A stretch of 32,000 bases of DNA from Bdellovibrionales bacterium (lineage in GTDB: Bacteria > Bdellovibrionota > Bdellovibrionia > Bdellovibrionales > UBA1609). Each line of letters opens with the position of its first letter. The stretch's first letter is position 1. The notes under the pieces are model-generated. The model searched no databases. It was not told the DNA's origin and was given only the letters and a program-made list of their open reading frames with translations. The stretch covers positions 840,001-872,000 of the forward strand of contig OY843585.1 of assembly GCA_963692945.1 (NCBI GenBank), read 5' to 3'. The position numbers and the translations under genes are program-made. Shown here one piece after another: positions 210 to 19,644 of this stretch.

Positions 210-220
210 AACATCCTCCT

Positions 221-1257: not shown

Positions 1258-1780
1258 AATATCTCCAAGGATTTTTATAATTTCTTTGATTGTTTGATAA
1301 ATGAATGACTAATTTTTTAAAACTTTTATCTGTTTTTCCTTTTTTAAATTTAATATTTTCAACTTTTATTTCATAAGTTCTATCTGTAATTTCTTTAACC
1401 TCTATAATCTGCGTTGTTTGTATGATTTGATTTTCTTTGATATAAAAACTAGTTTTTATAAAATCCTTTCTTTGTTTATTCCATAAAGCATCTGACATCA
1501 TATCACCTGCTTTTGATATATTTTTATCATAAGAATTTTTATCAAAATTGAGTGAAAGACCTATAAAATGTCTAAGAAAATTTTGAACTTCTAAATTGGT
1601 TTCTTTTTCTTTTTTTAAGACTTCAAAAAAACCTCTATCTTTTGTAATAACTAAAATCTCATTTTTTTGATTAAAAATTAAAATACTCATAAAGCTTGCC
1701 CATAAAAATAAACAAATAAACAAACTAGATAAAATAAATTCTTTTTTATATAGTTTAAATATCAACATCTTGACCCTCAT
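1232..1780 (-). CDS. VirB8/TrbF-like T4SS inner-membrane protein
   Basis: 182 aa with one N-terminal TM (FILSSLFICLFLWASFMSILIF), then a periplasmic domain ending in NYKNPWRYYVSDIKV, like the NPlG..V..y end of VirB8. It lies between VirB6-like and VirB9-like genes. Confidence 0.5.
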   Translation of the reverse strand: MRVKMLIFKLYKKEFILSSLFICLFLWASFMSILIFNQKNEILVITKDRGFFEVLKKEKETNLEVQNFLRHFIGLSLNFDKNSYDKNISKAGDMMSDALWNKQRKDFIKTSFYIKENQIIQTTQIIEVKEITDRTYEIKVENIKFKKGKTDKSFKKLVIHLSNNQRNYKNPWRYYVSDIKVK

Positions 1781-2795: not shown

Positions 2796-2796
2796 A

Positions 2797-3438
2797 TTAA
2801 AAAACTCCTAAAAATTTCTTTCTCTTTTTTTTAAAAGATTCTTTTTTTCTTTTAAAAGGATGAAAAGTATTAAATTTTAAAGTTTTTTGATGCTTATTCA
2901 TATAAGCATATTGATTTTTAACAAACTCTTTTTTTTCTCCTTCTTTTTTAATCTTTTTTCTTTTTTGAGAGACTTTTTCTCTTAAGTCTCTAATGTCTTT
3001 CGCTTGAGATTCCTTTAACAAAGCTCTTAAGACTCTATTGGTTTCAAAAGATTGACTTGCAATAATAGAGTCATTATCTAAAATTATTGTTTCCAAAACA
3101 TTGAAAAAACTTTTAGCTCTTTTTATATAATCATTAAAAAATTTCATTTTATTTTTTAAGGATGATTTTTTATTTGGAGTGAAATCTTTTAAATCTTCAA
3201 CATAAGAGCCTATCTCTTCTAATGCTTTTAATTCTTTACTTAAATTTTCTAATTCTTCTTCATATTTGAAAATCTCTTCTTCTAATTTTTTAAAGGTTTC
3301 TAATTCTTTAAGAAAATATCTTCCCTCTTTTGCTTGTAAGACATAACTATTTATCTCTTTTTTAATATCTAAAACACCTGAGATAAAAGCCTTTGAGTGT
3401 AAGGGAACAATTAAAAGTAAAACAAACATTTTAGACAT
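2797..3438 (-). CDS. secreted coiled-coil protein, VirB5/TrbJ-like by position
   Basis: 213 aa with signal peptide MSKMFVLLLIVPLHSKA. It is rich in heptad-like K/E/L segments and sits directly after VirB4, overlapping it by 8 nt. Confidence 0.4.
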   Translation of the reverse strand: MSKMFVLLLIVPLHSKAFISGVLDIKKEINSYVLQAKEGRYFLKELETFKKLEEEIFKYEEELENLSKELKALEEIGSYVEDLKDFTPNKKSSLKNKMKFFNDYIKRAKSFFNVLETIILDNDSIIASQSFETNRVLRALLKESQAKDIRDLREKVSQKRKKIKKEGEKKEFVKNQYAYMNKHQKTLKFNTFHPFKRKKESFKKKRKKFLGVF

Positions 3439-5515: not shown

Positions 5516-5768
5516 AAAAATTTCCGTTGATGAGACAATGAATCTTAAACTTTAAATAATCTCTTATAATCCCTCTTCTAAATTTTAAACGAATTGGAAT
5601 TAAAAATAAGGCTATTAAGAAAACAAAAAAGATAGCTAAAATCTCAAGACCAAGGCTTAAAAACAAAACTTGTAAAAGACTATAAGTTATACTTAAAAAA
5701 AGTAAATCATCTAAAGTTAGACCAAAAAAATTAGGTTTGATATTTAAAGTGTGAGAGGGTTTATACAT
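5508..5768 (-). CDS. VirB3/TrbD-like small membrane protein
   Basis: 86 aa with two hydrophobic helices. It sits immediately upstream of VirB4 and overlaps it by 8 nt. Confidence 0.45.
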   Translation of the reverse strand: MYKPSHTLNIKPNFFGLTLDDLLFLSITYSLLQVLFLSLGLEILAIFFVFLIALFLIPIRLKFRRGIIRDYLKFKIHCLINGNFYE

Positions 5769-5779
5769 TAAAATATCTT

Positions 5780-6052
5780 TTAATTGAAAATAGAATAAAA
5801 CAGACTAAATAAAGCTCCTGCTGAGGCGAAAACCACAGTTCCAATAACAGCACTCATAAGTCGTTCTGTTCCAACTCTTTTAGACCAATAAAAAGTTGCA
5901 CCTGAAACCATCAACGCTAAAACTCCAACAACAGCTATAATTTCTTTTAAACTTGAACTTGCTTCTTCCACAGAATGAAGAAAGTCACGAGCTAAAATAG
6001 AATTTGAGTAAATTATCAAAAACAAATAAAAATAAATAAAATCTTTTTTCAT
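5780..6052 (-). CDS. VirB2/TrbC-like pilin
   Basis: 90 aa. Signal peptide MKKDFIYFYLFLIIYSNSILA is followed by two hydrophobic helices (IIAVVGVLALMVSGATFYW, VIGTVVFASAGALFSLF), the typical pilin layout. First of the VirB2-3-4 order. Confidence 0.55.
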   Translation of the reverse strand: MKKDFIYFYLFLIIYSNSILARDFLHSVEEASSSLKEIIAVVGVLALMVSGATFYWSKRVGTERLMSAVIGTVVFASAGALFSLFYSIFN

Positions 6053-6321
6053 AAAATCTCCTTTAATTTTAAAAAAACATTTGGTTTAAAAATGAAACAA
6101 ATCACTAAAGTAAGAGTTAATCCAATGAGGACTTTAATATCCATAAACAAAAAAGAAATGATTTGAATAAAACTGACCAAACAACTAAGAGTAATATTCA
6201 AAATAAATAAAAGACTTAAAATCTTAAGTGTAATATCTCTATTAGAGTCTTCTTTTCTAAGACTTAACCCGTAATCTATAAGAGATAAGAATTTATCCCT
6301 AATTTTAAATAACATTTTCAT
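6049..6321 (-). CDS. small polytopic membrane protein, T4SS operon
   Basis: 90 aa. SD GGAGGAGCA precedes the ATG. ATGA overlaps occur at both ends (6318-6321 and 6049-6052). Two or three hydrophobic helices. Confidence 0.5.
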   Translation of the reverse strand: MKMLFKIRDKFLSLIDYGLSLRKEDSNRDITLKILSLLFILNITLSCLVSFIQIISFLFMDIKVLIGLTLTLVICFIFKPNVFLKLKEIL

Positions 6322-6830
6322 TGCTCCTCCTTAACTTTCGCTCCCGTTAGTTCAAACATTTTATTTCCCTTTATCAATCTGTTATTTCCAACGAAAACCC
6401 ATTCCTTATTTCCATAATCTTTTTGAAGTTCGTATAAAGACCATTGCCCAAAATCAATAAATTCTTTAAATTCTTTTGGAATATTTTTTTCAGTAAGATA
6501 AGATTTTCCACCTGTTAAGAATTTGATTTTATTTCCCTCATAAGTTAGACCAAAATCTTCTTCTAAAACTTTAATTTTGTTTTCAAGGTCTTTGATTGTT
6601 TCTTCTTCACTAAAGAAAGATGAAGAAAGAAGAAGGGCTAGAAAACCTAACCCTCCTCCATATAAAAGTGCGTTTTTGACTTTTTGTTCTTTATGTGTGT
6701 AACCAACTGCACTTCCTATTCCAAAACTTAAAATTCCTGCACCAAGTATTTTTTCTTTATGTCTCAAATTGGCACATCCCACCAAAAAGAAAAGACAAAT
6801 AAATAAAATTTTATTTGATATGTTTTCCAT
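6318..6830 (-). CDS. lipoprotein, T4SS operon (possible VirB7-type role)
   Basis: 170 aa. Lipobox FFLVGC follows the signal peptide and SD GGAGG lies 5 nt before the ATG. The VirB7-like role is inferred from position only. Confidence 0.55.
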   Translation of the reverse strand: MENISNKILFICLFFLVGCANLRHKEKILGAGILSFGIGSAVGYTHKEQKVKNALLYGGGLGFLALLLSSSFFSEEETIKDLENKIKVLEEDFGLTYEGNKIKFLTGGKSYLTEKNIPKEFKEFIDFGQWSLYELQKDYGNKEWVFVGNNRLIKGNKMFELTGAKVKEEQ

Positions 6831-7158
6831 AGCGACCTCCTATACATTCGTTAGAATGATTTTTAGGTCTTCTTTCAATAACAATTCTAGCTCCTCTTTC
6901 TATAGTTAGAGGCATAAAACTGATGTCTGGAGATTCAAAATACTTGATTCTTAATTCAAAATAACTTCCTAAAATTAAATTATCATTTCCAGCGAAAGCC
7001 ATTGCTTTCAAAAAACTTTCTATTGTATGAACACCTGTAAGTTTTACAGGTTGAACTTCTTTTTTTACAATTTCATCCTTAAAACCTAGTTCTTGTAATT
7101 CTGCACAGCTAACAGAAAAAATACTTAAACTTAAAAAAATAATCTTAAAACAATTCAT
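6811..7158 (-). CDS. small secreted or lipoprotein, first gene of T4SS operon
   Basis: The track ORF begins at GTG 7161. The ATG at 7158 has AAGGAG 6 nt upstream. Signal peptide MNCFKIIFLSLSIFSVSC. Confidence 0.5.
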   Translation of the reverse strand: MNCFKIIFLSLSIFSVSCAELQELGFKDEIVKKEVQPVKLTGVHTIESFLKAMAFAGNDNLILGSYFELRIKYFESPDISFMPLTIERGARIVIERRPKNHSNECIGGRYGKHIK

Positions 7159-7189
7159 CACAAACTCCTTTTTTCTTGGACTTGTGAGA

Positions 7190-7239
7190 ATTACAAATAA
7201 AAAAATAAAAAGAAAGGGTAGGGGTTAAATCAACCCTAC
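7190..7239 (-). terminator. rho-independent terminator after the DUF2806-like gene
   Basis: On the minus strand the hairpin is gtagggtt-gattt-aacccctac (7218-7239), followed by a U-rich tract (plus-strand A-run 7190-7217). Confidence 0.5.
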
Positions 7240-7327
7240 GTGTGTTGAACCAAGAAGGGATAAATGGATAAAAATAGAGAGTTTCATCTCATCATGGGAT
7301 GAATAAAAGGAACTCTATAAAGTAAAT

Positions 7328-8176
7328 CTACATTATATTGTCTTTATCAGAATAGTTAAATTTAAATTGTCCATTATTTAATTTACTCTTTTTTAATTGA
7401 TATCCTTTTAATTTTAAATATTTAGATAAACTAGATAAATATATCTCATCTGGTTCATGATGAACAAATTTAGCTAATTCTCTTCCGGAGCATGTTAAAA
7501 AGAGAAAATCTGGTAATACATCCTCTGTTTTAGGTTTAGGAGTTACATATAGCATATAACCATAGTAGGAACCTATTCTTGCTATATTGTAAGTAATATC
7601 AGGTGTAACAGGTTTTCCTTCCATTACGTTGAATGGCATAACTAAAGAAGCTTCAACTAATATAGAAATTTCATGATGAAATGGAAAACTTGGAAGTGTC
7701 TGATTTATTTTGTCTGTATAAAATATACAACCATCTATACTATATTTTAAGAATCTATGAAAAAGATTAGCTTCTTCAGAAGTTAAATTGCTAAGAACTG
7801 ACATTGTTCTTTTAGAAGTATTGGTTGTTCCATTTATTTTTCCATCTAAAATTTTAGCCCAAATTTGTTTTAAATCTTCTTCACTTACATCTTTACATTT
7901 ATCTATAAAATTTCCTACCCAACTTGGTTCCATATTTTTAATATTTTCTTTATTTACATTTTTTGTTGCTTTTAAAAATACATCAGTTACATTGTTTTTT
8001 CTGGTTTGTGGTAATGATTCTATAATTTCTTTTGTTGAAGAAGGATTAAGAATAATAAGATTTGTATTTTGGATTGTGGACGTAGATTTTTTTTGGTTAA
8101 TCTCAATTTTAAAAAAATTTTTGAAGTTAACTACTAGGCTGTCAAATACTTTGCCAATAATACTAAAAACACTCAC
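7328..8176 (-). CDS. DUF2806-like protein
   Basis: 282 aa. PSWVGNFIDKCKDVSEEDLKQIWAKILDGKINGTTNTSKRTMSVLSNLTSEEANLFHRFLKY matches my memory of the DUF2806 core (W..F.n.a.dvSdeelq.lWAkiLagE....gs.S.rtl..L..Ls..eA.lF). The start is uncertain: GTG at 8176 with no SD. Confidence 0.55.
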   Translation of the reverse strand: MSVFSIIGKVFDSLVVNFKNFFKIEINQKKSTSTIQNTNLIILNPSSTKEIIESLPQTRKNNVTDVFLKATKNVNKENIKNMEPSWVGNFIDKCKDVSEEDLKQIWAKILDGKINGTTNTSKRTMSVLSNLTSEEANLFHRFLKYSIDGCIFYTDKINQTLPSFPFHHEISILVEASLVMPFNVMEGKPVTPDITYNIARIGSYYGYMLYVTPKPKTEDVLPDFLFLTCSGRELAKFVHHEPDEIYLSSLSKYLKLKGYQLKKSKLNNGQFKFNYSDKDNIM

Positions 8177-8197
8177 AGAATAAATTTATAATATAAA

Positions 8198-8581
8198 TTA
8201 TTTCACAGGCTGATATGGGCCACCACCACCCCCACCTGGCATAGATGCTAAAACTTCATATACAAACCATTTATACTCTACTTCTTTTTCTAAATAAGAA
8301 TGAGGAGCATAAATCAAAATATCATTATTATTGATCATTTTTTGAATTTCATTAACTTTAGCATTTGAAAGAGGAAGTTCTTTTACTTGTTTTTCTATCA
8401 ATGAAGATACAAAATTGCTTTCTGTGATAAGAGAAGCAAATTTATTATCCATTTTATGATTTACATTAAAGGGTCTTAACTGATGAGTTGGATAAGACTT
8501 TATACTAAAATTGTTATATCCTGTTTGAGCCACAGCAAAAGCTGGCACAATAAAAGTAAAAAATATTAAAATTGTTTTCAT
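8198..8581 (-). CDS. small secreted protein with C-terminal Gly run
   Basis: 127 aa. Signal peptide MKTILIFFTFIVPAFAVAQ and C-terminus PGGGGGGPYQPVK. An ATGA overlap with the upstream regulator (8578-8581) implies translational coupling. Confidence 0.6.
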   Translation of the reverse strand: MKTILIFFTFIVPAFAVAQTGYNNFSIKSYPTHQLRPFNVNHKMDNKFASLITESNFVSSLIEKQVKELPLSNAKVNEIQKMINNNDILIYAPHSYLEKEVEYKWFVYEVLASMPGGGGGGPYQPVK

Positions 8582-9312
8582 TTTGTATCTCCTTTTTGTT
8601 TTGATGTTCCAATTCTATCACTACAACCAATGGAAAAAACAGGAATATCTCCCTTACACTCATCGTCATCAAGAACTTCTTGTATCTTTCTATGCATTTC
8701 TTGATGAAGATACATAACTTTTTTCATTCCTTTTTCATTGAGAAACTCCGTCCAACAATGAACATAATTTTTATTAGAATCAGAAGGTTTGTATTGCTCA
8801 ACCAAAAACATCAAATGATTTTTTATAAGTTTAAAAGAAAGAATGGTGTCTTTACTTCGGTCTATAACTTTATAATAACCTTTCTCATTTTTTTTTATAA
8901 TTTTATTTTCTTCAAGACTTTTCAAACCATCAAGAGCTAACTCTCCAAAATGTGTTTGAACTTCTTTTTCTGTAATGCCTTTTTCAGAAAAAGATAAAAC
9001 CCAACATAAATAGGAGTATTTGTCATAAAGCAGAGTCTCAACAGATTCCTCTAAAGGATTAAAATTTCTTCTTTGTGTTGCAACTTGCATAGGTCTTAAA
9101 TCTCTAGGTATAAACTTTTCAACTTCAGGAACAAAACGACTAATTTTTAAAATAGTTTCTAAACTTGGTTCAGAATAACCATTTAAAAGCCTATTAAAAG
9201 TCGTAGAAGAGACACCAAATTCTCTTGAAAGAGAATTTTCACTTGTTGAAGGATTCTTCTTTTTTCTATCTGAAACATAATTTCTTAGGATTTCTTGAAA
9301 ATTCTCATTCAT
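8578..9312 (-). CDS. HTH transcriptional regulator, TIGR02147/DUF4423-like
   Basis: 244 aa. The N-terminus YVSDRKKKNPSTSENSLSREFGVSSTTFNRLLNG looks like an HTH. The middle region YSYLCWVLSFSEKGITEKEVQTHFG..LEENKIIKKNEKGYYKV resembles the winged-helix part of that family. Assigned from memory. Confidence 0.5.
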   Translation of the reverse strand: MNENFQEILRNYVSDRKKKNPSTSENSLSREFGVSSTTFNRLLNGYSEPSLETILKISRFVPEVEKFIPRDLRPMQVATQRRNFNPLEESVETLLYDKYSYLCWVLSFSEKGITEKEVQTHFGELALDGLKSLEENKIIKKNEKGYYKVIDRSKDTILSFKLIKNHLMFLVEQYKPSDSNKNYVHCWTEFLNEKGMKKVMYLHQEMHRKIQEVLDDDECKGDIPVFSIGCSDRIGTSKQKGDTK

Positions 9313-9431
9313 AACTTTACCTATCTATGCAAACTTGATGCTAGAATTAAATACAAAAAAACCTGTTATTTGTCAATATTTAGACAGATTTATCCGTTAA
9401 AAATGTAGAATTTACAATATTTTTAAATTTA

Positions 9432-9953
9432 CTAAGGGTGATAAGGTGGATAATGGCATTCTGTTTTTTCATCATATACAACCATTTCCCTACGAAGAGG
9501 ATGATCTTTAATTACACTTTCTTCCCTTAATTTTTTTTGAGAATCAATATTTCCAAATTTACTAAGAAGGATTTCTTTTTTGTCCTCCAATTTTATAGTC
9601 AGAATTACACTACTTTCTTCATAATAAGGAATATAGGCTGCCACATAAAATACAGGATCATGCTCAGATTTATCCTGTCTAAGCCTTAAAAAATCTTCTG
9701 CAAGTATTTTACCAGTTTTATCATAAATACGCACTTTAAAATTTTTATCAAAAATAGGTTCCTTGTTTTTCTCTTTATTGTAGCAATAGCTTGATCCTGC
9801 ATATCTAAATTCTTTTTTTAAAGGATCATATTGACTATTAATACTAATCTCTTGTAAATCCTTATCAGGATAGACAATAGGTTTTGGTGGATTTGGATTT
9901 TTTAATATACAACTGCAAGGTATAATAACCAATCCTAACAAAAATATTTTCAT
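9432..9953 (-). CDS. putative lipoprotein
   Basis: 173 aa. Signal peptide MKIFLLGLVIIPCSC carries Cys residues at the cleavage region. It lies 53 nt downstream of the metalloprotease gene on the same strand. Confidence 0.5.
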   Translation of the reverse strand: MKIFLLGLVIIPCSCILKNPNPPKPIVYPDKDLQEISINSQYDPLKKEFRYAGSSYCYNKEKNKEPIFDKNFKVRIYDKTGKILAEDFLRLRQDKSEHDPVFYVAAYIPYYEESSVILTIKLEDKKEILLSKFGNIDSQKKLREESVIKDHPLRREMVVYDEKTECHYPPYHP

Positions 9954-10006
9954 AACTTATTTAATCCCTTTCCAATAATTTTTGTCAATCTCATCTTCTT
10001 CTTTCT

Positions 10007-12865
10007 TCATCTGTTTTTTTTAGCATTGCTTTTTCTTTTAATAAGAGGAGCTTTATAAAGAATCCTTCTATTAGAATTTAAAATCCTAATACTTAAATCT
10101 TTAATTTTTGTATCTTTTGTCTCTTTTGGTAATTCAAAAGCTGCTGTGATGAGTGATATAGGAAGCACTTCTGTCTTTTCGGTTCTATCTTTATAAATTG
10201 TTCTTATTCTCATTTTGAAAGCAGGTCTTTCAATTGTTTCAAAATCATCTCCATGTCTATCAAGTTTAATAATCAAGTTAGGAATATTTTTATGTTGTCC
10301 AACTGAAAAAGAAGGTGTAGTCAAATCAGTTTTTAAAATTTCTTGTTTAGGAAGAATAATTTTATCTTTAGTTTGGTCATAAAAACCAGTTATGACAATT
10401 TTATTATTACGTACTATTGATCTACCAAATAATTCTGTTGTATTAGAAATTACAGCACCAAATCTTAAAAGAGCAGAGAATATTTTTTGAAAAGTATCTC
10501 TATCTATCCATTGATCTAAAATTCCTCCCCTATTATTCATAATACTCCATTTATTTTTTACAAAATTAAAAGAAGATCCATTATTCCAAGAATCTAAACC
10601 TCTCGCAATTTGTTGGTTATGACACAATATGGGAGTTTGACCTCTAAACTCCTGACATAATTCTGTATGTTGTTTTTGATCATATTGCTCTTTTTCTTGC
10701 CCTAAAGTATGAGCCAACTCATGAGCTATAGTTCCTTGATTTTTTTGGTCATCTGAAATAAATGTAATATTCCAACTTCCACCTAAAAAACCACTTTTAT
10801 ATCTCCAGTCTTGAAAAATAAAATATCTCCAATACTCCCAATAAGGTTGTATTACAAAACCTGCAACAGCACGTCTCTTTTTATCAACTTTATTGTGAAA
10901 AAGAAAATAATTTTCTGGAACAATAGCAACAAATTTATCCAGTTTATGAGCTTGCCTATGTTTTTCTAAAATATCAATATCCCTAAGGATACCTATAGTC
11001 TGTCCACTTCTTTTGTGATAACGATTATTATCACAAGAACCAGAAATATAATTTATAACTTTAGTAGTAACTTTATTTATGGGAAACATAGAGGGTATGT
11101 ATCTTTTAACTTCTTTTGAACCAGCAAAATCGGTTACAATTTGCAGGGAGGAATAACCATAGCTTGTGCATCTTTTACCTCCGTATATTCTTGTAAACCC
11201 TAGTTTTAAATCTGGGGTTTTTATAATTTTTACTCTAAAAGACTTTTGAATAAAACAACTTGTATTTTTATCATAGTTTATGGGAAGAAGAGTAACTATG
11301 ATGTTTAAATTCATTTCTCCATTGTTTAAAATATTTTCTCTCATAGGAAGAGGAATAAATTTAAATTTACCTTCTTTTCTCAGACTTCTGTTATTAAATA
11401 GACAACGATTGATTTGAGAAATTTCCATTTGTCCGTTAAAAGGTTCATGAAAACATCTATTTTGAAAATTATTAATTCCAGGTATCTTTAACCCTACTAT
11501 AAACAATTCATTTTTATCCATACCTTTCCTATCCAATTTGATTAAAACTCCAGCTGGTTTGCCTTGAACTAAGTCATAGTTATTATAAGGTAAAGCTGGC
11601 TGTTGATTCATAGGTTCTATTTGAGGAGCTTCTACGGATTGATAAACCACAACAGATTCTATTTTTGGCACATTGATAGGGCATTTTTGTGAATTGCTTG
11701 ACTGAGCAAGTTTTAAATTATTTGTATTTCCAGCTACATTTCCAGTAGAAGTGGATGTTTTAGACTGAGTGGATGATTTGCTTGATTCTTTTAAATTTTT
11801 ATCTGGCTTTTGAGAAGATTTACTAGGCTTATCTAAAAGAGCTTTAGTTCCTAAAACTCCTGCTCCAGCCAAAGCACCTGCTCCTAAAAGAGCAGACGAA
11901 CTGGAACTCTTTTTAGAACTAGCAGATTTTGGATTTTGATTCTCAGCTAGATTAGCGATTTGAGCAGGGATATTTGTTTCCGCTTGTCTTGTAGCAGCTT
12001 GTTGTTGCTCTTTAAACTTTCGTTTTCGCTCTTCAAACTTTTGTTGGGCTTTCTCCAACACTTTTTGTGCTTCTTTAGCTCTTTTAGCCTCTTCAGCTTT
12101 TTGTGTCTCTTCAACTCTTTGATTCTCTACTTGCTGTTCGCTTTTGGCTCTTTCACAAATTTGAAAAGACAAACGGTTTAAACCTTGTGTGGTTTTTGAT
12201 TTTTCAATTTCTTTACATTGGACAATATCTTTTGGTTCAATGTCTTTTTTAAAAAGAGACACTTTGTCTAAACTTTGTTCTTTGTATTTTTTGGAAACCT
12301 CTTTCATCTCTTTCCAACAATCTGAGTTGCTTGTTGTTTTTTGAGATTCTTTTAAAACAGAATCTATAGTATGAGGAAATCTAATATTAAAACATTTTTT
12401 AAAATTTGTTTTAAAGTTTAACAATTCCTGATTACAATCTGTCTCACAATTTTCTATCCCTAACTCACATAAATTGGATTGTGTATTGAATAAAAAACTT
12501 GAAAGCTTTGATAAATTATTAGACTGACAACTGCCCCCTGATTGTTGAACTAAACCAAGACTATCTTTTTCAACAGATTGAACGAAGGTTTCTGCATAAG
12601 AGTCATTACAACTTGTAGGATTAGCACAACAATTTTTATAAATATTAAGTCGCTTCTCACATATATTGTAAATACTCTCACTATTATCTTTATCTAAAAG
12701 ATTGTTTTTTAAATGATTCAAACATTCCTTATCTACTGTGCAACGATAGGAATTATCAATTTTTTTAGCAGGTTCTTCCCAGACATCTGGAGGAGACTCG
12801 TCAAATGATGTAGCTATTGAGTTGCCTACAAAGAGAATAAAGATTTTTAATAAGATAAGTTTCAC
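10007..12865 (-). CDS. large secreted Cys-rich protein with C-terminal HEXXH zinc-metalloprotease domain
   Basis: 952 aa with a GTG start. Signal peptide MKLILLKIFILFVGNSIA. The N-terminal ~240 aa hold many Cys. Then come a K/E/Q coiled-coil, a Ser-rich linker and a Gly/Ala hydrophobic segment, ALLGAGALAGAGVLG. HELAH lies in IAHELAHTLGQ (nt 10709-10723). A paralogue lies at 28434-32000. Confidence 0.7.
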   Translation of the reverse strand: MKLILLKIFILFVGNSIATSFDESPPDVWEEPAKKIDNSYRCTVDKECLNHLKNNLLDKDNSESIYNICEKRLNIYKNCCANPTSCNDSYAETFVQSVEKDSLGLVQQSGGSCQSNNLSKLSSFLFNTQSNLCELGIENCETDCNQELLNFKTNFKKCFNIRFPHTIDSVLKESQKTTSNSDCWKEMKEVSKKYKEQSLDKVSLFKKDIEPKDIVQCKEIEKSKTTQGLNRLSFQICERAKSEQQVENQRVEETQKAEEAKRAKEAQKVLEKAQQKFEERKRKFKEQQQAATRQAETNIPAQIANLAENQNPKSASSKKSSSSSALLGAGALAGAGVLGTKALLDKPSKSSQKPDKNLKESSKSSTQSKTSTSTGNVAGNTNNLKLAQSSNSQKCPINVPKIESVVVYQSVEAPQIEPMNQQPALPYNNYDLVQGKPAGVLIKLDRKGMDKNELFIVGLKIPGINNFQNRCFHEPFNGQMEISQINRCLFNNRSLRKEGKFKFIPLPMRENILNNGEMNLNIIVTLLPINYDKNTSCFIQKSFRVKIIKTPDLKLGFTRIYGGKRCTSYGYSSLQIVTDFAGSKEVKRYIPSMFPINKVTTKVINYISGSCDNNRYHKRSGQTIGILRDIDILEKHRQAHKLDKFVAIVPENYFLFHNKVDKKRRAVAGFVIQPYWEYWRYFIFQDWRYKSGFLGGSWNITFISDDQKNQGTIAHELAHTLGQEKEQYDQKQHTELCQEFRGQTPILCHNQQIARGLDSWNNGSSFNFVKNKWSIMNNRGGILDQWIDRDTFQKIFSALLRFGAVISNTTELFGRSIVRNNKIVITGFYDQTKDKIILPKQEILKTDLTTPSFSVGQHKNIPNLIIKLDRHGDDFETIERPAFKMRIRTIYKDRTEKTEVLPISLITAAFELPKETKDTKIKDLSIRILNSNRRILYKAPLIKRKSNAKKNR

Positions 12866-13283
12866 ATCTAATTATCGGTGTATTTTCTAAAAAGCTAAAG
12901 GGTATTTATGATGAATGTTCTGATTTTTAAATATCAATCTTTAAACTGTATTAAATAGAGACATAAGTGTTAAAAGATTGAACAGTATGAAAGGGTTTTA
13001 ATGGAGATGGTAAATTCCTTTATAACCTCTCTTCATTAAAGTCCAAATAATTCCCCATTCCATTAGTGGTTATTGTATCAAAAGAACATACTTATGCAAA
13101 GCATCAATCACAAAATATTGTGGAGGGTAATGTTTGGATATTTATAAGTATGTTTATTATTCTTAAAAGATCAAACTGTTAGTCTAGAGTAATCTTTACT
13201 ATACAAGATTTCATTTTGCTCAATGAACTTCTTTGTAATATCATTTCATATGATACATTCAAAATTATAAATATAAGAATCTT

Positions 13284-14339
13284 ATGGTAAAAAATACATT
13301 TATAGATTTATTTTCTGGCATTGGAGGCTTTAGATTAGGTTTAGAAAAAGCTGGATTTAGATGTGTGTTTTCATCTGAAATAGATAAACATTGTAGAATA
13401 GCGTATAAAAATAATTTTGGGGAAACTCCTGCAGGAGATATAACAAAGATTCCTTTAACTGATATTCCTGACCATGAAATATTGGCTGGCGGATTCCCAT
13501 GTCAATCTTTTAGTATTTGTGGAAAAAGAAAAGGATTTGCAGATAAAAGAGGGGATTTATTTTTTCGTATTTGTGAAATCATTAAATTTAAACAACCTAA
13601 AGTAATTTTTTTAGAAAATGTGAAATACCTAATGTATCACAATGGAGGAGCAACTTTAGATTTGATGCTATCATCATTAAATGATTTAGGCTACCACATA
13701 AACTTTAAAATTTTAAATTCACTTCACTTTGGAGTACCTCAAAACAGAGAGAGAATTATTATCATAGGAGCAAAAAAAGGTTACTTTAATTTCAACTATC
13801 TAGAATATAAATTAGACTTTAATATTAAGCTTCTTGATTTTTTAGATAAAAAGGGAACTTTTGAGTATCTGAAAAAAAAGGAATACACTTTAATAAAAAG
13901 CCCCACCCGAAAAAAAGACTCAGGGTTGTTTTTTGTCGGTTATAGAAATAAAGGCATATGGAAAAAAGGTATCAGACCAAATACAAAACATCTTTCCAGA
14001 GTTCACAGACAACCAAATAGAATTTACTCTGCTCTTGGAACTCATCCAACAATACCCTCTCAAGAACCATCTGGTAGATTTTTTGTCTATATACATGAAG
14101 AACAAAAAGTGAGAAAATTAACAATAAAAGAATGTTACCGTATCATGGGATTTCCAGACAATTTCAAAATATATGAAAAAAAACAGGAAGCCTATAAACA
14201 AGTAGGAAACTCTATATGTGCCCCTATGGTCTATAGAATAGCAAAACAAATCAAATCTCAAGGACTATTAAAGGGGAGGGTGTATGAAAAATCACAAACA
14301 ACTATTAGAAACAGTATTCAGCAAAGCTTCAACTTATGA
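13284..14339 (+). CDS. DNA (cytosine-5)-methyltransferase, M.HhaI-like
   Basis: 351 aa carrying the canonical m5C motifs: I FSGIGG, IV GFPCQSFS (Cys codon 13500-13502), VI FLENV, VIII QNRER, IX RKLTIKECYRIMGFP and X QVGNSI. The N-terminal half aligns closely with my memory of M.HhaI, but the target-recognition region differs. Confidence 0.9.
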   Translation: MVKNTFIDLFSGIGGFRLGLEKAGFRCVFSSEIDKHCRIAYKNNFGETPAGDITKIPLTDIPDHEILAGGFPCQSFSICGKRKGFADKRGDLFFRICEIIKFKQPKVIFLENVKYLMYHNGGATLDLMLSSLNDLGYHINFKILNSLHFGVPQNRERIIIIGAKKGYFNFNYLEYKLDFNIKLLDFLDKKGTFEYLKKKEYTLIKSPTRKKDSGLFFVGYRNKGIWKKGIRPNTKHLSRVHRQPNRIYSALGTHPTIPSQEPSGRFFVYIHEEQKVRKLTIKECYRIMGFPDNFKIYEKKQEAYKQVGNSICAPMVYRIAKQIKSQGLLKGRVYEKSQTTIRNSIQQSFNL

Positions 14340-15384
14340 TACTTTCTCTATTCCTGAAACAATTAAAAACAATTTAATCTTAATAGCTGACAACTCAAAA
14401 AAACAAAAGGGTGTATTTACTGTTTTAACTACATTGCTTATTCATAAAATATATGACCCTAATCAAGACATTAGAAAACACCAATCCGATATGAACAATG
14501 GATTTTCTGGCAGGAGTATAGACACACAATATATTACACCAACTCTTAAAAAATTGAACCTTCCTGCCATGGCAGAAAGTGGCTGGTTAACACGCTCTCT
14601 TGAACAACCCTATCCCTATGATTTAAAATACCGAGGAAAAATCCAAAATCAAAAAGTTAAAAAAGCTTTCTTAGAGATAATTGACTATATTCAGAATAAT
14701 CCCAAAAAAACAGAAGAATGTTCCATTTTTTTAATTTATTTAGCACAGAAAATTATAAAAAATAAAATCAATATAACAAAATTAAAAAATAAAGAAAGTA
14801 TAGATATTGAAAAAATCATTTCCTTTTTAGATAAATGTTTTAATTATCCATACAAAGAGCGTGGTGGTTCAAAAATACCAGTGATAGCAATTTACAGTAT
14901 TTTCATGATTCTAGTAAAAGAATTAGAACGTTACAAAGGTTGTAAATTAAAGCCACTTGGAAGTCACACAGCATCCGACAGAACTTCTAAAACTTCTGGT
15001 GACATTGAAATAGTAAATATACGCAATTCCCTTGAAGAATCTATTGAAATAAAATTTGGCAAGACAATAGATCCTCATTTAATCAGAAATATAAAAAATA
15101 AAATATATACATATAACCCAAAAAGATACTGTATATTCTCAACTAAACCTATAAGAAATAAAAATGAAGTTTTTCAAATTGTATCAAAAATAAAAAAAGA
15201 ACACGGATGTTATTTAATTCTCAATGGCATCCTTCCTACACTTAAATATTATTTGAGATTAATTTCATCTAAAAAAGCTTTTTTAAATAATTTCTTTACA
15301 ATGATTATGGATGACTCTGAGCTACAATCCATACATAAACAAGTTATTAAACAATTAAAAGAACAATTCTTTAAAGAAGAATAG
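14284..15384 (+). CDS. putative type II restriction endonuclease
   Basis: 366 aa. The strong SD GGGGAGGG sits inside the methylase 3' end, and the two genes overlap by 56 nt. A candidate PD-(D/E)xK motif reads GD(15001)IEIV...E(15046)-I-K(15052). No family was recognised; the call rests on context plus that motif. Confidence 0.5.
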   Translation: MKNHKQLLETVFSKASTYDTFSIPETIKNNLILIADNSKKQKGVFTVLTTLLIHKIYDPNQDIRKHQSDMNNGFSGRSIDTQYITPTLKKLNLPAMAESGWLTRSLEQPYPYDLKYRGKIQNQKVKKAFLEIIDYIQNNPKKTEECSIFLIYLAQKIIKNKINITKLKNKESIDIEKIISFLDKCFNYPYKERGGSKIPVIAIYSIFMILVKELERYKGCKLKPLGSHTASDRTSKTSGDIEIVNIRNSLEESIEIKFGKTIDPHLIRNIKNKIYTYNPKRYCIFSTKPIRNKNEVFQIVSKIKKEHGCYLILNGILPTLKYYLRLISSKKAFLNNFFTMIMDDSELQSIHKQVIKQLKEQFFKEE

Positions 15385-15416
15385 ATACTTGTTTTAGAAA
15401 TCATTTTATTAATCTG

Positions 15417-15899
15417 CTAAATCTTCCTTTTAATTTGAAGATTATTGGTATCTCTACTCTCTAAAAGGTTTTCTAAATCATATATCCAATAGTAAGTTGA
15501 ACCATCATCAAAACTCATAATCTCTTCATCTTCTTCTAAACTAGAAATATATTCATCTTGAGCTAAATCCCAATCACAAGGACTTATTTCTTTTAAAACC
15601 TCTAGAGTGTTGAGTTTAAGCCAACCCACTTGCACTTCATCTTGATAACAATCTTCTATCATACTTTCAAAAACTTCTTTTTCATCTATAGGTTTAAGTT
15701 CTTTTTTGAGAATCTCATCAATAACCCATTCTGTACCATATTCAACGCCTACACCTTCCAGCAATCTCATATTGTCATCACTTCCACAATGAAGACAAAA
15801 AGCATCTTTAACTTCTTCATAGCAAGGGTAACAAAAAGGCTTTGATAGCTTAAAAGCTAAACCTGTTAACTGTTTTAAAATGATTTCTTTTTTATTCAT
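15417..15899 (-). CDS. highly acidic zinc-ribbon protein, function unknown
   Basis: 160 aa. SD GGAGGAAC precedes the ATG. The zinc ribbon is CxxC-x9-CxxC (CYPCYEEVKDAFCLHC), and the rest is D/E-rich (..LEEDEEIMSFDDGSTYYWIYDLE..). It is convergent with the R-M pair. Confidence 0.6.
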   Translation of the reverse strand: MNKKEIILKQLTGLAFKLSKPFCYPCYEEVKDAFCLHCGSDDNMRLLEGVGVEYGTEWVIDEILKKELKPIDEKEVFESMIEDCYQDEVQVGWLKLNTLEVLKEISPCDWDLAQDEYISSLEEDEEIMSFDDGSTYYWIYDLENLLESRDTNNLQIKRKI

Positions 15900-15977
15900 A
15901 GTGTTCCTCCTTTTGATAATGAACTTGTTTTTCTGTCATTTACCAAAAACGAAGAGAATGCTTTGCAAGATTAAAAT

Positions 15978-16011
15978 TGGGGGAAACCAAAGCGAAGCGA
16001 ATGGGGGAACC
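15978..16011 (-). promoter_or_regulatory. paired G5/C5 motif in the putative leader of the acidic zinc-ribbon gene
   Basis: tgggggaaacc (15978-15988) and tgggggaacc (16002-16011) flank agcga-agcga (15991-16000). On the minus strand each reads GGUU(U)CCCCC, complementary in 7 of 8 positions to the gene's SD GGAGGAAC. Confidence 0.25.
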
Positions 16012-16090
16012 GATTTTGATCTTGAGGACAACTTTTTCAATCCTTTAAAAAATAAAGATAAAAATTGTTCGTCAAAGTAAATGAACGAAA

Positions 16091-16171
16091 TTTTAATGAC
16101 AAGATACAAAAACAAGTTCTAAAAGGGAGTTATAAACATAAAAAAAGTTCTCTAAAATAGAGAACTTTTTT
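16091..16171. repeat. direct repeat DR-L (~81 nt), partner at 16544-16627
   Basis: The first 34 nt, ttttaatgacaagatacaaaaacaagttctaaaa, match DR-R with 1 mismatch. The remainder is similar and ends in a hairpin. Confidence 0.85.
16141..16171. terminator. bidirectional terminator-like hairpin (A6-stem-T6)
   Basis: aaaaaa gttctcta aaa tagagaac tttttt: a perfect 8-bp stem. No annotated gene ends here. Confidence 0.45.
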
Positions 16172-16199
16172 GAAGGTTAGTTACAGAATGTTTCTACCA

Positions 16200-16260
16200 T
16201 TTATGGCGTGATTTTGGCGTGATTTTCTAGTTATGAGAGGTTATGAGCAGTTACTAGCAG
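16200..16260. repeat. iteron-like tandem repeats (2 x 11 nt, then 3 x 10 nt)
   Basis: ggcgtgatttt occurs twice (16205-16226). ttatgagagg / ttatgagcag / ttactagcag follow at 16231-16260. The first 27 nt recur at 19337-19363. Confidence 0.8.
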
Positions 16261-16319
16261 GATGAAAAGTGTTTTGGTTACTTGATTTTTTACTTATTTT
16301 AACTCTTTAAAATCACTTT

Positions 16320-16341
16320 TTCTAACCCTCCGTGGGCACCA
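16320..16341 (+). other. tRNA 3'-end-like fragment (T-loop-like, C-rich arm, ..GGCACCA); candidate att core
   Basis: ttctaaccctccgtgggcacca compares with the tRNA-Leu(CAA) 3' end ttcgagtctcccccgaggcacca. They share ggcaccattt exactly and about 14 of 23 positions overall. No 5' half is present, so this is not a tRNA gene. Confidence 0.35.
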
Positions 16342-16344
16342 TTT

Positions 16345-16544
16345 ACAAAACTCTAGTGTGTACCTTTCTTATTTTCTGACCTTTCATCGTAAGAGGGACA
16401 CTCTTCAAGTTCAGAAAATAAGTAGAGTTTCATAGAGAAAAACTGCTGTTTTTCGCAACTCTGGTTTTCGTAAGAGGGACACTCTTCAAATCTCGTTAAA
16501 ATAAGAGTTACTTAATAGATTTATTGTTTGAACTAGAGTTTTGT
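16345..16544. other. 200-nt nested inverted-repeat element (candidate structured RNA, MITE-like unit or protein-bound DNA site)
   Basis: A perfect 13-bp closing inverted repeat spans 16345-16357 / 16532-16544. Inside are a 12-bp stem (16368-16379 / 16411-16422), a 7-bp hairpin (16437-16454) and a 6-bp stem (16457-16462 / 16504-16509). An identical 22-mer appears at 16387-16408 and 16468-16489. Confidence 0.6.
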
Positions 16545-16627
16545 TTTAATGACAAGATACAAAAAAAAGTTCTAAAAAGGAGGATAAAAATAAAAAAAAG
16601 CCCTCTACATAATAGAGAGCTTTTTTT
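16544..16627. repeat. direct repeat DR-R (~84 nt), partner of 16091-16171
   Basis: See DR-L. It ends in the terminator hairpin of the pentapeptide gene. Confidence 0.85.
16592..16627 (-). terminator. rho-independent terminator of the pentapeptide-repeat gene (bidirectional form)
   Basis: A8 - gccctcta cataa tagagagc - T7, an 8-bp stem with 1 mismatch, about 50 nt past the stop at 16674. Confidence 0.55.
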
Positions 16628-16673
16628 AAGCTTAGTAATAAAGATATATGTTTTTCTTTAGAATTATTTTAAA

Positions 16674-16988: not shown

Positions 16989-17031
16989 TTGGACTCCTTG
17001 TTATTATTATCGGCTGACTTCTTTAGGTTTT

Positions 17032-17826: not shown

Positions 17827-18087
17827 AACTAAGACTTTCTCCTTTTCAACATTAAAATGGATTACATTATGATCAAAAAAATAAGGAAACACTATCTTTT
17901 TCAATGAAAGTGAAATTTTTTCCTGTATTTATATGTAGATATTCCAGAGATCAACTTGCATTGGTCTTAGTAAAGCGTCATCAGATGAAAATAGTATTTA
18001 AAACAACCCTTATGTCATTGGGGCGATACGATGCCTCATCTTTCAAACAAATTTTGGATTGGGATAATAAACTAGAAGAGGCTTTTA

Positions 18088-19200: not shown

Positions 19201-19287
19201 GCCTCGGTGGCGGAACTGGTAGACGCGCTGGACTCAAAATCCAGTGAAGTTCGCTTCATGGGAGTTCGAGTCTCCCCCGAGGCACCA
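19201..19287 (+). tRNA. tRNA-Leu (anticodon CAA), CCA encoded
   Basis: Folded by hand. Acceptor gcctcgg/ccgaggc. Anticodon stem ctgga/tccag with loop cuCAAaa. Long variable arm tgaag-ttcg-cttca. T arm gggag-ttcgagt-ctccc. Discriminator A plus CCA. Confidence 0.95.
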
Positions 19288-19336
19288 TTTTTAAAAAAGC
19301 GTATTTAAATACAAGACTTTCATATCTGAAAAATGG

Positions 19337-19363
19337 TTTATGGCGTGATTTTGGCATGATTTT
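19337..19363. repeat. second copy of the 27-nt ggcgtgatttt-type double repeat
   Basis: tttatggcgtgattttggcatgatttt matches 16200-16226 at 26 of 27 positions. It lies about 50 nt after tRNA-Leu(CAA). Confidence 0.85.
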
Positions 19364-19390
19364 TTTTGAATCAATAAGTATATAGATCCC

Positions 19391-19557
19391 TTTCTTTTAA
19401 ACTTGAATTTGCTTTTTCCATAGCATGAAGAAAGTCACGAGCTAAAATAAAATTTGAATGATTATCAAAAATAAACAAAAACTTTTTTATTTTTAAGTGG
19501 ATTTTGTAGTTTTTTCACTTTTTAAAAAAATTTAGTTTAAAAATGGAACAAATCAAC
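19391..19557 (-). pseudogene. relic of T4SS pilin (VirB2-like) 5' end plus the 3' end of its upstream gene
   Basis: Aligns in direct orientation with 5941-6107, about 80% identity by eye with one ~12-nt gap. The encoded remnant ..ILARDFLHAMEKANSSLKE compares with ILARDFLHSVEEASSSLKE. The start-codon position reads ATA, and the frame stops about 8 codons after the homology ends. Confidence 0.75.
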
Positions 19558-19644
19558 CTTGATTTATAATTTACCAAAAATATACTTGATTTTTTTTAAG
19601 AATAATTGTAAAAACCATTCATTATAAAGTTAAAGGGGGATTTT

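What the first reader, a model, noticed from the sequence alone, without database searches (positions are those of the whole stretch)
16345..16544. 200-nt element closed by a perfect 13-bp inverted repeat, with three internal hairpins and a 22-mer repeated at 81-nt spacing
Seen: acaaaactctagt (16345-16357) is the exact reverse complement of actagagttttgt (16532-16544). Three hairpins lie inside. Hairpin A has a perfect 12-bp stem, cttattttctga/tcagaaaataag (16368-16379 / 16411-16422). Hairpin C is gaaaaac-tgct-gtttttc (16437-16454). Hairpin B is aactct/agagtt (16457-16462 / 16504-16509). A and B each enclose the identical 22-mer tcgtaagagggacactcttcaa (16387-16408 and 16468-16489), which is itself a mini-hairpin aagag-ggaca-ctctt. 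There is no credible ORF. The element sits in a 775-bp gene-free block at the edge of the T4SS/cargo region, next to a tRNA-3'-like fragment. Inference: it could be a structured ncRNA, a MITE-like TIR element (ttt on both flanks), or a protein-bound DNA site (oriT, recombination or replication) of the mobile element. I do not recognise it as any known RNA family.
Basis: partly seen in the sequence, partly recalled or inferred. Interest (0 to 1): 0.72.

Follow-up and report, generated by a model that had tools for sequence, protein, structure and literature searches.

The report
Hairpin-repeat debris beside an ICE junction
The 200-nt "closed" element is real sequence but not a self-contained unit: it is a fast-rearranging patch of duplicated hairpin modules just outside the right end of a conjugative element inserted in a tRNA-Leu gene, and its closing stem and biggest hairpin exist only in this strain.

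Summary
No public collection matched, but one conspecific contig (L091, 99.2% identical in the flank) settles the question. The window's left 16.3 kb is a T4SS-bearing integrative conjugative element (ICE). Its right junction (attR) ends in a 19-nt copy of the 3' end of tRNA-Leu(TAG) at 16326-16344, and the finding starts 1 nt later. L091 lacks the ICE. There the intact tRNA-Leu(TAG) is followed directly by a homologous but differently built array: 2.5 tandem modules (9-10-bp hairpin, then the 22-mer), then the integrase arm repeats GGCGTGATTTT x2. In the window, 34 nt (16353-16386) are an inverted copy of a module tail, which creates hairpin A and half of the left "TIR". The right "TIR" spans a 1.26-kb deletion junction. 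L091 has neither stem. MITE, oriT and any Rfam family are rejected. It is most likely decaying att-flank DNA: an amplified tRNA-terminator segment left by an older ICE copy, next to which the present ICE integrated. A residual role in recombination or as an RNA is not excluded. The finding is ordinary and of low interest.

The parts
1..16325 (.). Right part of an integrated conjugative element (ICE): T4SS genes (VirB4-like 3431-5515, TrbC/VirB2-like 5780-6052), HTH protein, Abi-like protein, C5-methylase plus putative restriction enzyme, and the 160-aa CxxC protein
   Evidence: Pfam scans. This stretch is absent from conspecific contig L091/L092, which is 99.2% identical from 16916 onward.
15900..16095 (-). 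Conserved 5' leader of the 160-aa gene (an ICE right-end gene)
   Evidence: DNA-level homology in at least 14 loci of other Bdellovibrionota. The homology stops at about 16091-16097.
16091..16182 (.). DR1, an ICE-borne copy of a ~92-nt segment with a bidirectional terminator hairpin (16141-16171)
   Evidence: 79-85% identical to DR2. Terminator scan. P-arm homology of other ICE copies reaches into it.
16194..16325 (+). P arm of attR: two 11-nt arm repeats GGCGTGATTTT (16205-16226), three 10-nt repeats GTTATGAGAG/GTTATGAGCA/GTTACTAGCA (16230-16259), then ~65 nt more before the core
   Evidence: A profile built from four loci finds homologous P arms in L005, L009, L021, L006/L016, L003/L004 and L040, each ending in the 3' end of a tRNA.
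16326..16344 (+). att core: copy of the 3' end of tRNA-Leu(TAG) (CCCTCCGTGGGCACCA) plus TTT
   Evidence: Identical to the 3' end of the intact tRNA-Leu(TAG) of L091 (3864-3882), with one mismatch to L001.
16345..16352 (+). ACAAAACT, the native sequence after the tRNA, shared with L091; it is the first 8 nt of the left 'TIR'
   Evidence: Alignment A2.
16353..16386 (+). Window-specific inverted duplication of a module tail. It supplies CTAGT of the left 'TIR' and the whole left arm of hairpin A, and it replaces the first hairpin-C module of L091
   Evidence: Its reverse complement matches L091 AAGTTCAGAAAATAAGAAAGGTA at 22 of 23 positions. Score 41 against 15.7 +/- 2.4 in 500 shuffles, none reaching it. 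Alignment A2.
16387..16408 (+). 22-mer copy 1, TCGTAAGAGGGACACTCTTCAA (mini-hairpin AAGAG-GGACA-CTCTT)
   Evidence: Identical in L091.
16409..16436 (+). Tail of module 1, including the right arm of hairpin A (16407-16422). It differs from L091 by a cluster of changes (TAGAGT against AAAGGTA)
16437..16454 (+). Hairpin C (GAAAAAC-TGCT-GTTTTTC), the head of module 2. It is homologous to the hairpin that follows the tRNA in L091
   Evidence: Three copies in L091. The first copy, 11 nt after the tRNA, scores as terminator-like.
16457..16509 (+). Hairpin B (AACTCT/AGAGTT) enclosing 22-mer copy 2 (16468-16489)
   Evidence: L091 copy 2 has three substitutions (GGACAC to GGATGT).
16510..16538 (+). Tail of module 2 plus ACTAGAG, the head of a third module that is truncated here
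   Evidence: L091 continues AAAAACTACTGTTTTTCGC..., a third hairpin C, then the arm repeats.
16539..16543 (+). Junction bases TTTTG. Relative to L091, 1.26 kb is missing (L091 4077-5339: arm repeats A1, two small ORFs, arm repeats A2, distal leader piece). These bases complete the right 'TIR'
16544..16637 (.). DR2, a remnant of the right end of an older ICE copy. It now serves as the terminator of the convergent pentapeptide gene (hairpin 16593-16627)
   Evidence: In L091 the same segment still carries the distal piece of the ICE leader on its left. Terminator scan.
19201..19555 (+). Comparison site: tRNA-Leu(CAA) followed by a canonical post-core flank (47-nt spacer, arm repeats 19342-19363) and a fragment 76% identical to the ICE pilin region. 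This is a decayed ICE copy without the repeat modules

Best explanation
The finding is the DNA that lies immediately on the far side of the right junction (attR) of an ICE integrated into tRNA-Leu(TAG). It is not a discrete element. It is a local array of ~82-100-nt modules. Each module has a 7-10-bp hairpin (GAAAAAC-TGCT-GTTTTTC, homologous to the terminator hairpin that follows the tRNA) and then the 22-mer. The array arose by tandem duplication of the spacer between the tRNA core and the integrase arm repeats of an earlier, now decayed ICE copy. The present ICE later integrated into the same tRNA gene (tandem accretion). That cut the array off from the tRNA and left it beside the 19-nt tRNA fragment. 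In the window's strain two further events occurred. An inverted duplication of a module tail created hairpin A and the CTAGT of the left arm. A 1.26-kb deletion joined the head of the third module to a remnant of the old ICE's right end (DR2). Together these events produced the perfect 13-bp closing stem. The strong predicted folding therefore reflects recent duplications rather than selection for structure, and the array most likely has no function of its own today. What is shown: the position, the junctions, the module structure, and the absence of both large stems in the sister strain. What is inferred: the order of events, and the absence of function.
For: 1. The P arm (16194-16325) is homologous to att P arms in at least 7 other loci, and each of those ends in a tRNA 3' end. 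The 19 nt at 16326-16344 equal the 3' end of tRNA-Leu(TAG).
2. Conspecific L091 (99.2% identical over 11.5 kb) has gcvH, then an intact tRNA-Leu(TAG), then the homologous array, then GGCGTGATTTT x2, with no ICE.
3. The L091 array is 2.5 tandem modules, and its first hairpin scores as a terminator 11 nt after the tRNA.
4. Window 16353-16386 is an inverted copy of a module tail (22 of 23 positions, 0 of 500 shuffles reach the score).
5. In L091, read along its own contiguous sequence, the outer IR does not exist; hairpin A is 6/16 paired. The small hairpins are kept.
6. Unoccupied or differently occupied tRNA-Leu(TAG) sites in related species lack the modules: L001, L093, L094 and L005. So does the CAA site of the same genome.
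7. No module homolog was found in 0.7 Mb of related loci or in any collection scanned.
8. DR2 with its L091 counterpart is a remnant of an ICE right end.
9. Integration, decay and a second integration at the same tRNA is a described route to such tandems (PMC5704250).
Against: The alignable part of the array differs by about 7% between the two strains, against 0.9% in flanking non-coding DNA. That fits intrinsic instability. It fits equally well if the two copies are paralogous (an attL-side and an attR-side copy), in which case the array could be part of the live ICE's own attachment site. Three of the four 22-mer copies are identical, and the small hairpins are intact in both strains, which could reflect constraint. 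The left end of the ICE in the source chromosome could not be read. Genome-wide copy number in the source genome is unknown. Both sequences are metagenome assemblies, so the small inverted duplication has not been checked against reads.
Confidence: 0.6

Rival explanations
1. The array is a working part of the ICE's attachment site (the P' arm). On this reading the 22-mer, with its 5-5-5 palindrome, and/or the hairpin are binding sites for an excisionase, a recombination directionality factor or a host bending protein. Alternatively, extruded hairpins shorten the path between the core and the arm repeats. The copy in the window would then be the attR-side twin of a copy at attL.
For: In L091 the array sits exactly between the tRNA core and arm repeats that are 100% identical to those of the window's P arm. 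In L005 attL and attR share about 170 nt beyond the core, so long shared flanks occur in this family. Divergence of 7% against a 0.9% background fits paralogous copies. Three of four 22-mer copies are identical.
Against: Every other att site of the family has a 45-60-nt spacer without such modules, including the CAA site of the same genome with the same arm repeats. L091's copy adjoins a decayed island with no integrase. The window's copy has lost the arm repeats. The palindrome is not enriched elsewhere in the ICE. The architecture differs between the two strains.
Confidence: 0.15
2. The array is, or was, the 3' trailer of tRNA-Leu(TAG). On this reading it is a terminator or processing region, or a trailer-derived small RNA, that was orphaned in this strain when the ICE inserted.
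For: In L091 it starts 3 nt after CCA, and its first hairpin is terminator-like on the tRNA strand. Related species have a simple hairpin at the same place. The one change in a conserved stem is G-C to G-T on the + strand, which an RNA would tolerate.
Against: There is no Rfam match. There is no covariation beyond that single change. The modules are absent from related species. In the window the first hairpin has been overwritten, and no promoter lies upstream of or inside the element. Perfect Watson-Crick stems that arose by duplication need no RNA-level explanation.
Confidence: 0.12
3. It is a miniature inverted-repeat transposable element (MITE) that inserted into the T-run after the tRNA, with 13-bp terminal inverted repeats and a TTT target duplication.
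For: It has a perfect 13-bp IR, a size of 200 nt, no ORF and TTT on both sides. Removing it would place the tRNA end next to a terminator.
Against: The sister strain has the homologous interior at the same site, but neither terminal repeat. The left end is an inverted duplication and the right end is a deletion junction. There is no second copy in the window, in 0.7 Mb of related loci, or in any collection scanned. The 13-bp IR alone is within chance for this composition.
Confidence: 0.03
4. It is the origin of transfer (oriT) or a single-strand origin of the ICE.
For: It gives the strongest folding z-score as single-stranded DNA (-5.3), and it is close to a T4SS-bearing element.
Against: It lies beyond the att core, outside the segment that would excise and transfer. 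It is present in a strain without the ICE. It is absent from related ICE copies.
Confidence: 0.02

Closest known systems
attL/attR junctions of tRNA-targeting tyrosine-recombinase elements (lambda-type sites with a core plus arm-type repeats)
   Same: The core overlaps the 3' end of a tRNA gene and leaves a duplicated tRNA fragment at the far junction. There are tandem arm-type direct repeats on both sides. In relatives the integrase gene sits next to the tRNA side (L005, L009, L094).
   Different: The spacer between the core and the arm repeats is normally 45-60 nt in this family. Here, in one species only, it has been amplified to about 240 nt of hairpin modules and then rearranged. No integrase lies in the window.
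Tandem accretion of an ICE with a decayed related element (ICE-CIME tandems, e.g. ICESt1/ICESt3; review PMC5704250)
   Same: An older element decayed in place, leaving att-flank and end remnants (the array, arm repeats and DR2). A related ICE then integrated at the same tRNA, giving new ICE, att fragment, old debris.
   Different: The old element here is reduced to a few hundred bases and no longer has a second att core, so it is not a cis-mobilisable element. The order of events is inferred, not shown.
MITEs and foldback elements
   Same: Size, AT-richness, lack of an ORF, a perfect terminal inverted repeat and internal sub-repeats.
   Different: The ends are not conserved in the sister strain. 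There is no second copy and no clean empty site. The terminal repeat is made of two rearrangement junctions.
Intrinsic terminator hairpins and 3' trailers of tRNA genes (3' external transcribed spacer RNAs; from general knowledge)
   Same: The module head is homologous in position to the hairpin that follows tRNA-Leu(TAG), and it is terminator-like in L091.
   Different: It is amplified in tandem, lineage-specific, and in the window detached from the tRNA by the ICE.

Membership tests
MITE | Terminal inverted repeats that mark the ends of the mobile unit in every copy | tested here: not met
   The IR is present in the window. The homologous sequence in conspecific L091 has neither arm complete, and the ends are an inverted-duplication junction and a deletion junction.
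MITE | Several dispersed copies in the genome or in relatives | tested here: not met
   No further copy was found in the 32-kb window, in 0.7 Mb of related loci, or in the genome, metagenome and viral collections. The rest of the source chromosome could not be read.
MITE | Target-site duplication and an empty site in a relative | tested here: not met
   TTT on both flanks is uninformative in 29% GC DNA. The sister strain shows a filled, differently arranged site, not an empty one.
att junction of a tyrosine-recombinase ICE | Core identical to the 3' end of the target tRNA gene, with a partial tRNA copy at the distal junction | tested here: met
   16326-16344 equals the 3' end of the tRNA-Leu(TAG) of L091. 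Only the last ~19 nt of the tRNA are present.
att junction of a tyrosine-recombinase ICE | Arm-type direct repeats and a P arm conserved among related elements | tested here: met
   GGCGTGATTTT x2 lies at 16205-16226 and again after tRNA-Leu(CAA). The P-arm profile hits at least 7 loci, each next to a tRNA 3' end.
att junction of a tyrosine-recombinase ICE | Presence/absence polymorphism of the element at that tRNA | tested here: met
   L091/L092 has gcvH and an intact tRNA-Leu(TAG) and no ICE, in a 99.2% identical background.
att junction of a tyrosine-recombinase ICE | Cognate integrase gene at the other end, and excision to a circle | not testable with these tools
   There is no integrase or remnant in the window. 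The left end lies outside the window and the source genome could not be retrieved.
Rfam RNA families | Score at or above the gathering threshold of a curated covariance model | tested here: not met
   Only tRNA-Leu passes in the window. Inside 16345-16544 there are only chance-level miRNA-model hits with E above 2.
oriT or single-strand origin of an ICE | Lies inside the excising and transferred segment, near the relaxase or conserved in related elements | tested here: not met
   It lies beyond the att core, is present in a strain without the ICE, and is absent from related ICE copies.
Retron msr/msd, CRISPR mini-array, IS200/IS605 end hairpins (considered from shape only) | Adjacent reverse transcriptase, cas genes or Y1 transposase respectively | tested here: not met
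   No such domains occur in the neighbouring ORFs. The repeat and spacer sizes (22/59 nt) are outside the usual CRISPR range (general knowledge).

The most novel reading that the evidence does not exclude
The hairpin-plus-22-mer modules might be a functional, rapidly varying spacer of the attachment site. For example, extruded hairpins or a bound accessory protein could set the distance between the core and the arm repeats and so tune integration or excision. Alternatively they might be a tRNA-trailer-derived small RNA kept in this symbiont lineage. Either reading would explain why three of four 22-mers and all the small stems remain intact while the surroundings are reshuffled.
Probability: 0.08. 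Interest if true: 0.55.

Novelty: new member of a known kind. Interest (0 to 1): 0.2.

Why it matters
The finding matters mainly as a caution. A perfect closing stem, nested hairpins and an exact internal repeat look like a designed RNA or a MITE. Here they are by-products of recent tandem and inverted duplication and of a deletion in the debris next to an ICE junction. A useful side result is that the window documents a strain-polymorphic T4SS ICE in a small-genome (about 1.56 Mb, 29% GC), ankyrin-rich Bdellovibrionales lineage. The ICE has a well-defined att architecture shared across Bdellovibrionota, and there are decayed copies at two tRNA-Leu genes. If the modules did turn out to act in recombination, they would be an unusual expandable att arm.

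Tried and rejected
- **Rfam.** A gathering-threshold scan of the whole window and a permissive scan of 15900-16700 found nothing relevant.
- **BLASTN against plasmids and phages.** No plasmid hit and only 33-nt chance hits in phages.
- **Exact-pattern scans.** The 22-mer gave 0 hits in genomes and metagenomes. An 18-mer core, the TIR-gap-TIR pattern and a loop-degenerate hairpin pair gave 0 hits in viral contigs. The DR consensus 32-mer gave 0 hits in metagenomes, and a DR 20-mer gave four chance hits of 20-24 nt in viral contigs.
- **Look-ups of the source genome.** Window proteins, SecD (P0001) and GcvH (P0380) all failed to return the source contig. The ICE's left end and genome-wide copy number are therefore unknown.
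- **Similarity of the element to nearby sequence.** Comparison with the P arm, the leader and the CAA-site flank was not above shuffles.
- **Coding remnant.** tblastn and tblastx found none.
- **Integrase remnant in the window.** None found.
- **The AAGAG-N5-CTCTT palindrome as an operator elsewhere in the ICE.** It is not enriched.
- **Module profile against 0.7 Mb of related loci.** No hits.
- **Shape-based ideas.** These were retron msr/msd, a CRISPR mini-array, IS200/IS605-type end hairpins, integron attC, iteron origin and parS. All were dropped because the required neighbouring genes or motif layout are missing.
- **Earlier working idea.** An insertion into the loop of the tRNA terminator hairpin was superseded by the L091 comparison.

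Full report
**Observation**

The sequence at 16345-16544 is as described. It has:
- a perfect 13-bp inverted repeat at the ends (I13);
- hairpin A with a perfect 12-bp stem, extendable to 16 nt with one mismatch (I8);
- hairpins C and B;
- two identical 22-mers 81 nt apart (none expected by chance);
- no ORF above 26 aa.

It folds better than shuffled sequence as RNA on either strand and best as single-stranded DNA, with z = -3.7, -4.2 and -5.3. One correction on significance is needed. In this 29% GC window, perfect 13-mer inverted repeats within 400 nt occur in shuffles at a mean of 2.7 k-mer hits (maximum 10), against 7 observed at 5 separate repeats. The closing stem on its own is therefore not remarkable. 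The 22-mer repeat is.

**Known families and public sequence**

Rfam gives nothing for the element. BLASTN against plasmids and phages gives nothing beyond 33-nt chance matches. Exact scans were run for the 22-mer, the two ends with a gap, and a loop-degenerate hairpin pair. They found no match in the genome, metagenome or viral collections.

**Context**

- The left half of the window is a conjugative element. It carries a VirB4-like ATPase, a TrbC/VirB2-like pilin, an HTH protein, an Abi-like protein, a C5-methylase with a probable restriction partner, and a 160-aa CxxC protein.
- To the right lie a pentapeptide-repeat gene, two unknown genes, tRNA-Leu(CAA), an ankyrin gene, tRNA-Leu(GAG) and yajC-secD-secF.
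- SecD relatives place the source among small-genome Bdellovibrionales/Oligoflexia MAGs. The source contig is 1.56 Mb.

**The att junction**

The 16-nt fragment CCCTCCGTGGGCACCA at 16326-16341 is the 3' end of tRNA-Leu(TAG). The 130 nt to its left have this layout: two tandem GGCGTGATTTT repeats, three 10-nt GTTAnnAGnn repeats, and ~65 nt more before the core. They are homologous to regions in L005, L009, L021, L006/L016, L003/L004 and L040, each of which ends in the 3' end of some tRNA. L005 shows the complete arrangement:
- gcvH, tRNA-Leu(TAG), an integrase, then a homolog of the 160-aa gene;
- then this P arm and a tRNA fragment.

Window 1-16344 is therefore the right part of an ICE integrated into tRNA-Leu(TAG). 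Position 16326-16344 is the attR core, and the finding begins one base later on the far side of the junction. The same arm repeats recur 55 nt after tRNA-Leu(CAA). They are followed there by a fragment 76% identical to the ICE pilin region. That site holds a decayed copy of a related ICE.

**The decisive comparison**

The 90%-identity cluster of the source SecD has one other member. Its contig, L091/L092, is 99.2% identical to window 16916-28405. It has no ICE at this locus. There folD-gcvT-gcvH is followed by an intact tRNA-Leu(TAG), and directly after CCA-TTT comes a homolog of the finding. The L091 version consists of tandem modules:
- module 1 (82 nt): a 9-10-bp hairpin GCGAAAAAC-TGCT-GTTTTTCGC, then AACTCTGGTTT, the 22-mer and a tail;
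- module 2 (101 nt): the same, with a 22-mer carrying three substitutions;
- a third hairpin;
- then TTCATAGAGAAAAATGGTTTATGG and GGCGTGATTTT x2, which are 100% identical to the window's P-arm repeats.

Each module starts with TTCATAGAGAAAAA, the sequence that precedes the arm repeats in an ordinary post-core flank. The first hairpin, 11 nt after the tRNA, scores as a terminator. The array is thus an amplification of the terminator-containing spacer between the core and the arm repeats.

**How the window's "element" differs (alignment A2)**

1. ACAAAACT after the tRNA is shared.
2. The next 34 nt (16353-16386) replace the first hairpin module. They are the reverse complement of an L091-type module tail, AAGTTCAGAAAATAAGAAAGGTA, matching 22 of 23 positions. 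The score is 41 against 15.7 +/- 2.4 in 500 shuffles, none reaching it. This inverted duplication creates the left arm of hairpin A and the CTAGT of the left "TIR".
3. 16387-16538 aligns with about 7% differences.
4. After ACTAGAG, the head of the third module, the window continues TTTTG and then DR2. L091 continues with the third hairpin, the arm repeats, two small ORFs, a second arm-repeat cluster and a distal piece of the ICE leader before reaching the same DR.

The right "TIR" therefore spans a 1.26-kb deletion (or insertion) junction. Read along its own contiguous sequence, L091 has no outer repeat at all. Hairpin A is 6/16 paired in L091. The small hairpins (C, B and the 22-mer stems) are kept, with one G-C to G-T change. 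The L091 array also folds well (z = -4.3 as DNA, -2.4 as RNA) with a different overall structure. This shows that good folding is a property of the repeated palindromic modules, not of a conserved architecture.

**Distribution**

- tRNA-Leu(TAG) sites in related species have either a plain hairpin (L001, L093) or a normal 45-60-nt spacer followed by arm repeats and an integrase or its remnant (L005, L094). None has the modules.
- A profile of the modules finds nothing in 0.7 Mb of related loci.

The array is confined to this species.

**The flanking direct repeat**

DR1 (16091-16182) continues the family-conserved leader of the 160-aa gene, whose homology in other genomes ends at about 16091-16097. 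DR1 is also overlapped by the P-arm homology of other ICE copies. It is therefore native ICE sequence. DR2 (16544-16637) is its 79-85% identical counterpart. In L091 that counterpart still has the distal leader piece attached on its left. DR2 is therefore a remnant of the right end of an older ICE copy, and it now terminates the convergent pentapeptide gene.

**Most likely history and mechanism (inferred)**

1. An earlier ICE integrated at tRNA-Leu(TAG).
2. Its post-core spacer was amplified by slippage.
3. That element decayed to a few hundred bases, which is the state seen in L091.
4. A related ICE with the same arm repeats then integrated into the regenerated tRNA in the window's lineage.
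5. An inverted duplication and a 1.26-kb deletion followed.

Integration, decay and renewed integration at one tRNA is the described route to such tandems (PMC5704250).

**What stays open**

The alignable part of the array differs by about 7% (11 of 152 positions), while neighbouring non-coding DNA differs by 0.9% (13 of 1442) and the decayed CAA site not at all. There are two readings:
- the array is intrinsically unstable;
- the two copies are paralogous, one an attL-side copy and the other an attR-side copy.

In the second case the modules could belong to the live ICE's attachment site. The left end of the ICE in the source chromosome would decide this, but it could not be retrieved. Both sequences are metagenome assemblies, and the small rearrangements have not been checked against reads.

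**Verdict**

The unit it suggests is not real. MITE, oriT and any known RNA family are rejected. The best reading is rearranged att-flank debris next to an ICE junction (confidence 0.6). Small residual probabilities remain for a role in recombination (0.15) or as a tRNA-trailer RNA (0.12).

Noticed in passing
window 15900-16095 (minus strand): The 5' leader of the 160-aa CxxC...CxxC gene is conserved at DNA level in at least 14 loci from other Bdellovibrionota genomes whose proteins are only 56-64% identical. Its motifs are CCTCAAGAAAAAAATCGGTTCCCCC ... GGTTTCCCCCAATTT.TTTTCTTGCAAAGC, with an 8-bp pairing CAAGAAAA/TTTTCTTG that keeps a few compensatory changes. It is a candidate cis-regulatory leader or operator.
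   Followed up: partly
window 15417-15899 (minus strand): The 160-aa protein with four invariant cysteines has no Pfam domain. It has at least 134 relatives among species-representative genomes, almost all Bdellovibrionota. There are often several copies per genome, usually close to an att P arm.
   Followed up: partly
window 19288-19555: After tRNA-Leu(CAA) come a canonical post-core flank (47-nt spacer, GGCGTGATTTT GGCATGATTTT at 19342-19363) and a 165-nt fragment 76% identical to the ICE pilin region 5941-6104 in the same orientation. This is a decayed second ICE copy. It is identical in strain L091.
   Followed up: yes
window 1-16344 vs L091/L092: The whole T4SS ICE is absent from a conspecific contig that is 99.2% identical in the flank. 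The ICE is therefore strain-polymorphic and probably recent. Its proteins have no relatives at 90% identity or more in the 15-billion-protein collection.
   Followed up: partly
window 16091-16182 and 16544-16637: These are ~92-nt direct repeats (79-85% identical), each with a bidirectional terminator. They are explained as the ICE's own right-end sequence and the remnant of an older copy. L091 has a single copy whose left side resembles DR1's context and whose right side resembles DR2.
   Followed up: yes
window 16739-16915 (pentapeptide gene 16674-16988): The pentapeptide-repeat core of this gene is deleted in L091, leaving a 42-aa ORF. A 19-nt indel lies just downstream of the gene.
   Followed up: no
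window 1027/1166, 5078/5317, 6744/7114: Three other perfect inverted repeats of 13 bp or more, with arms 140-370 nt apart, lie inside the T4SS part of the ICE. They were not examined.
   Followed up: no
L005 3430-3600 and 10270-10450: The ~7-kb island in L005 is flanked by ~170-nt direct repeats: the tRNA-Leu(TAG) 3' end, a small hairpin, arm repeat(s) and about 90 nt more. There are two arm repeats at attL and one at attR. Long shared post-core flanks therefore occur in this integrase family.
   Followed up: partly
window 10007-12865 (minus strand): This 952-aa secreted-looking ICE cargo protein has no Pfam hit but contains an HELAH (HExxH-type) motif, seen in the translation. It was not analysed further.
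   Followed up: no
window 27544-32000 vs L091 17048-21493: Identity to the sister strain drops from 99.2% to 95.3% in the ankyrin-gene region to the right of 27544. L091 also has a ~55-nt insertion at that boundary and calls one more ankyrin ORF (17154-17858) than ORF listing does in the window.
   Followed up: no
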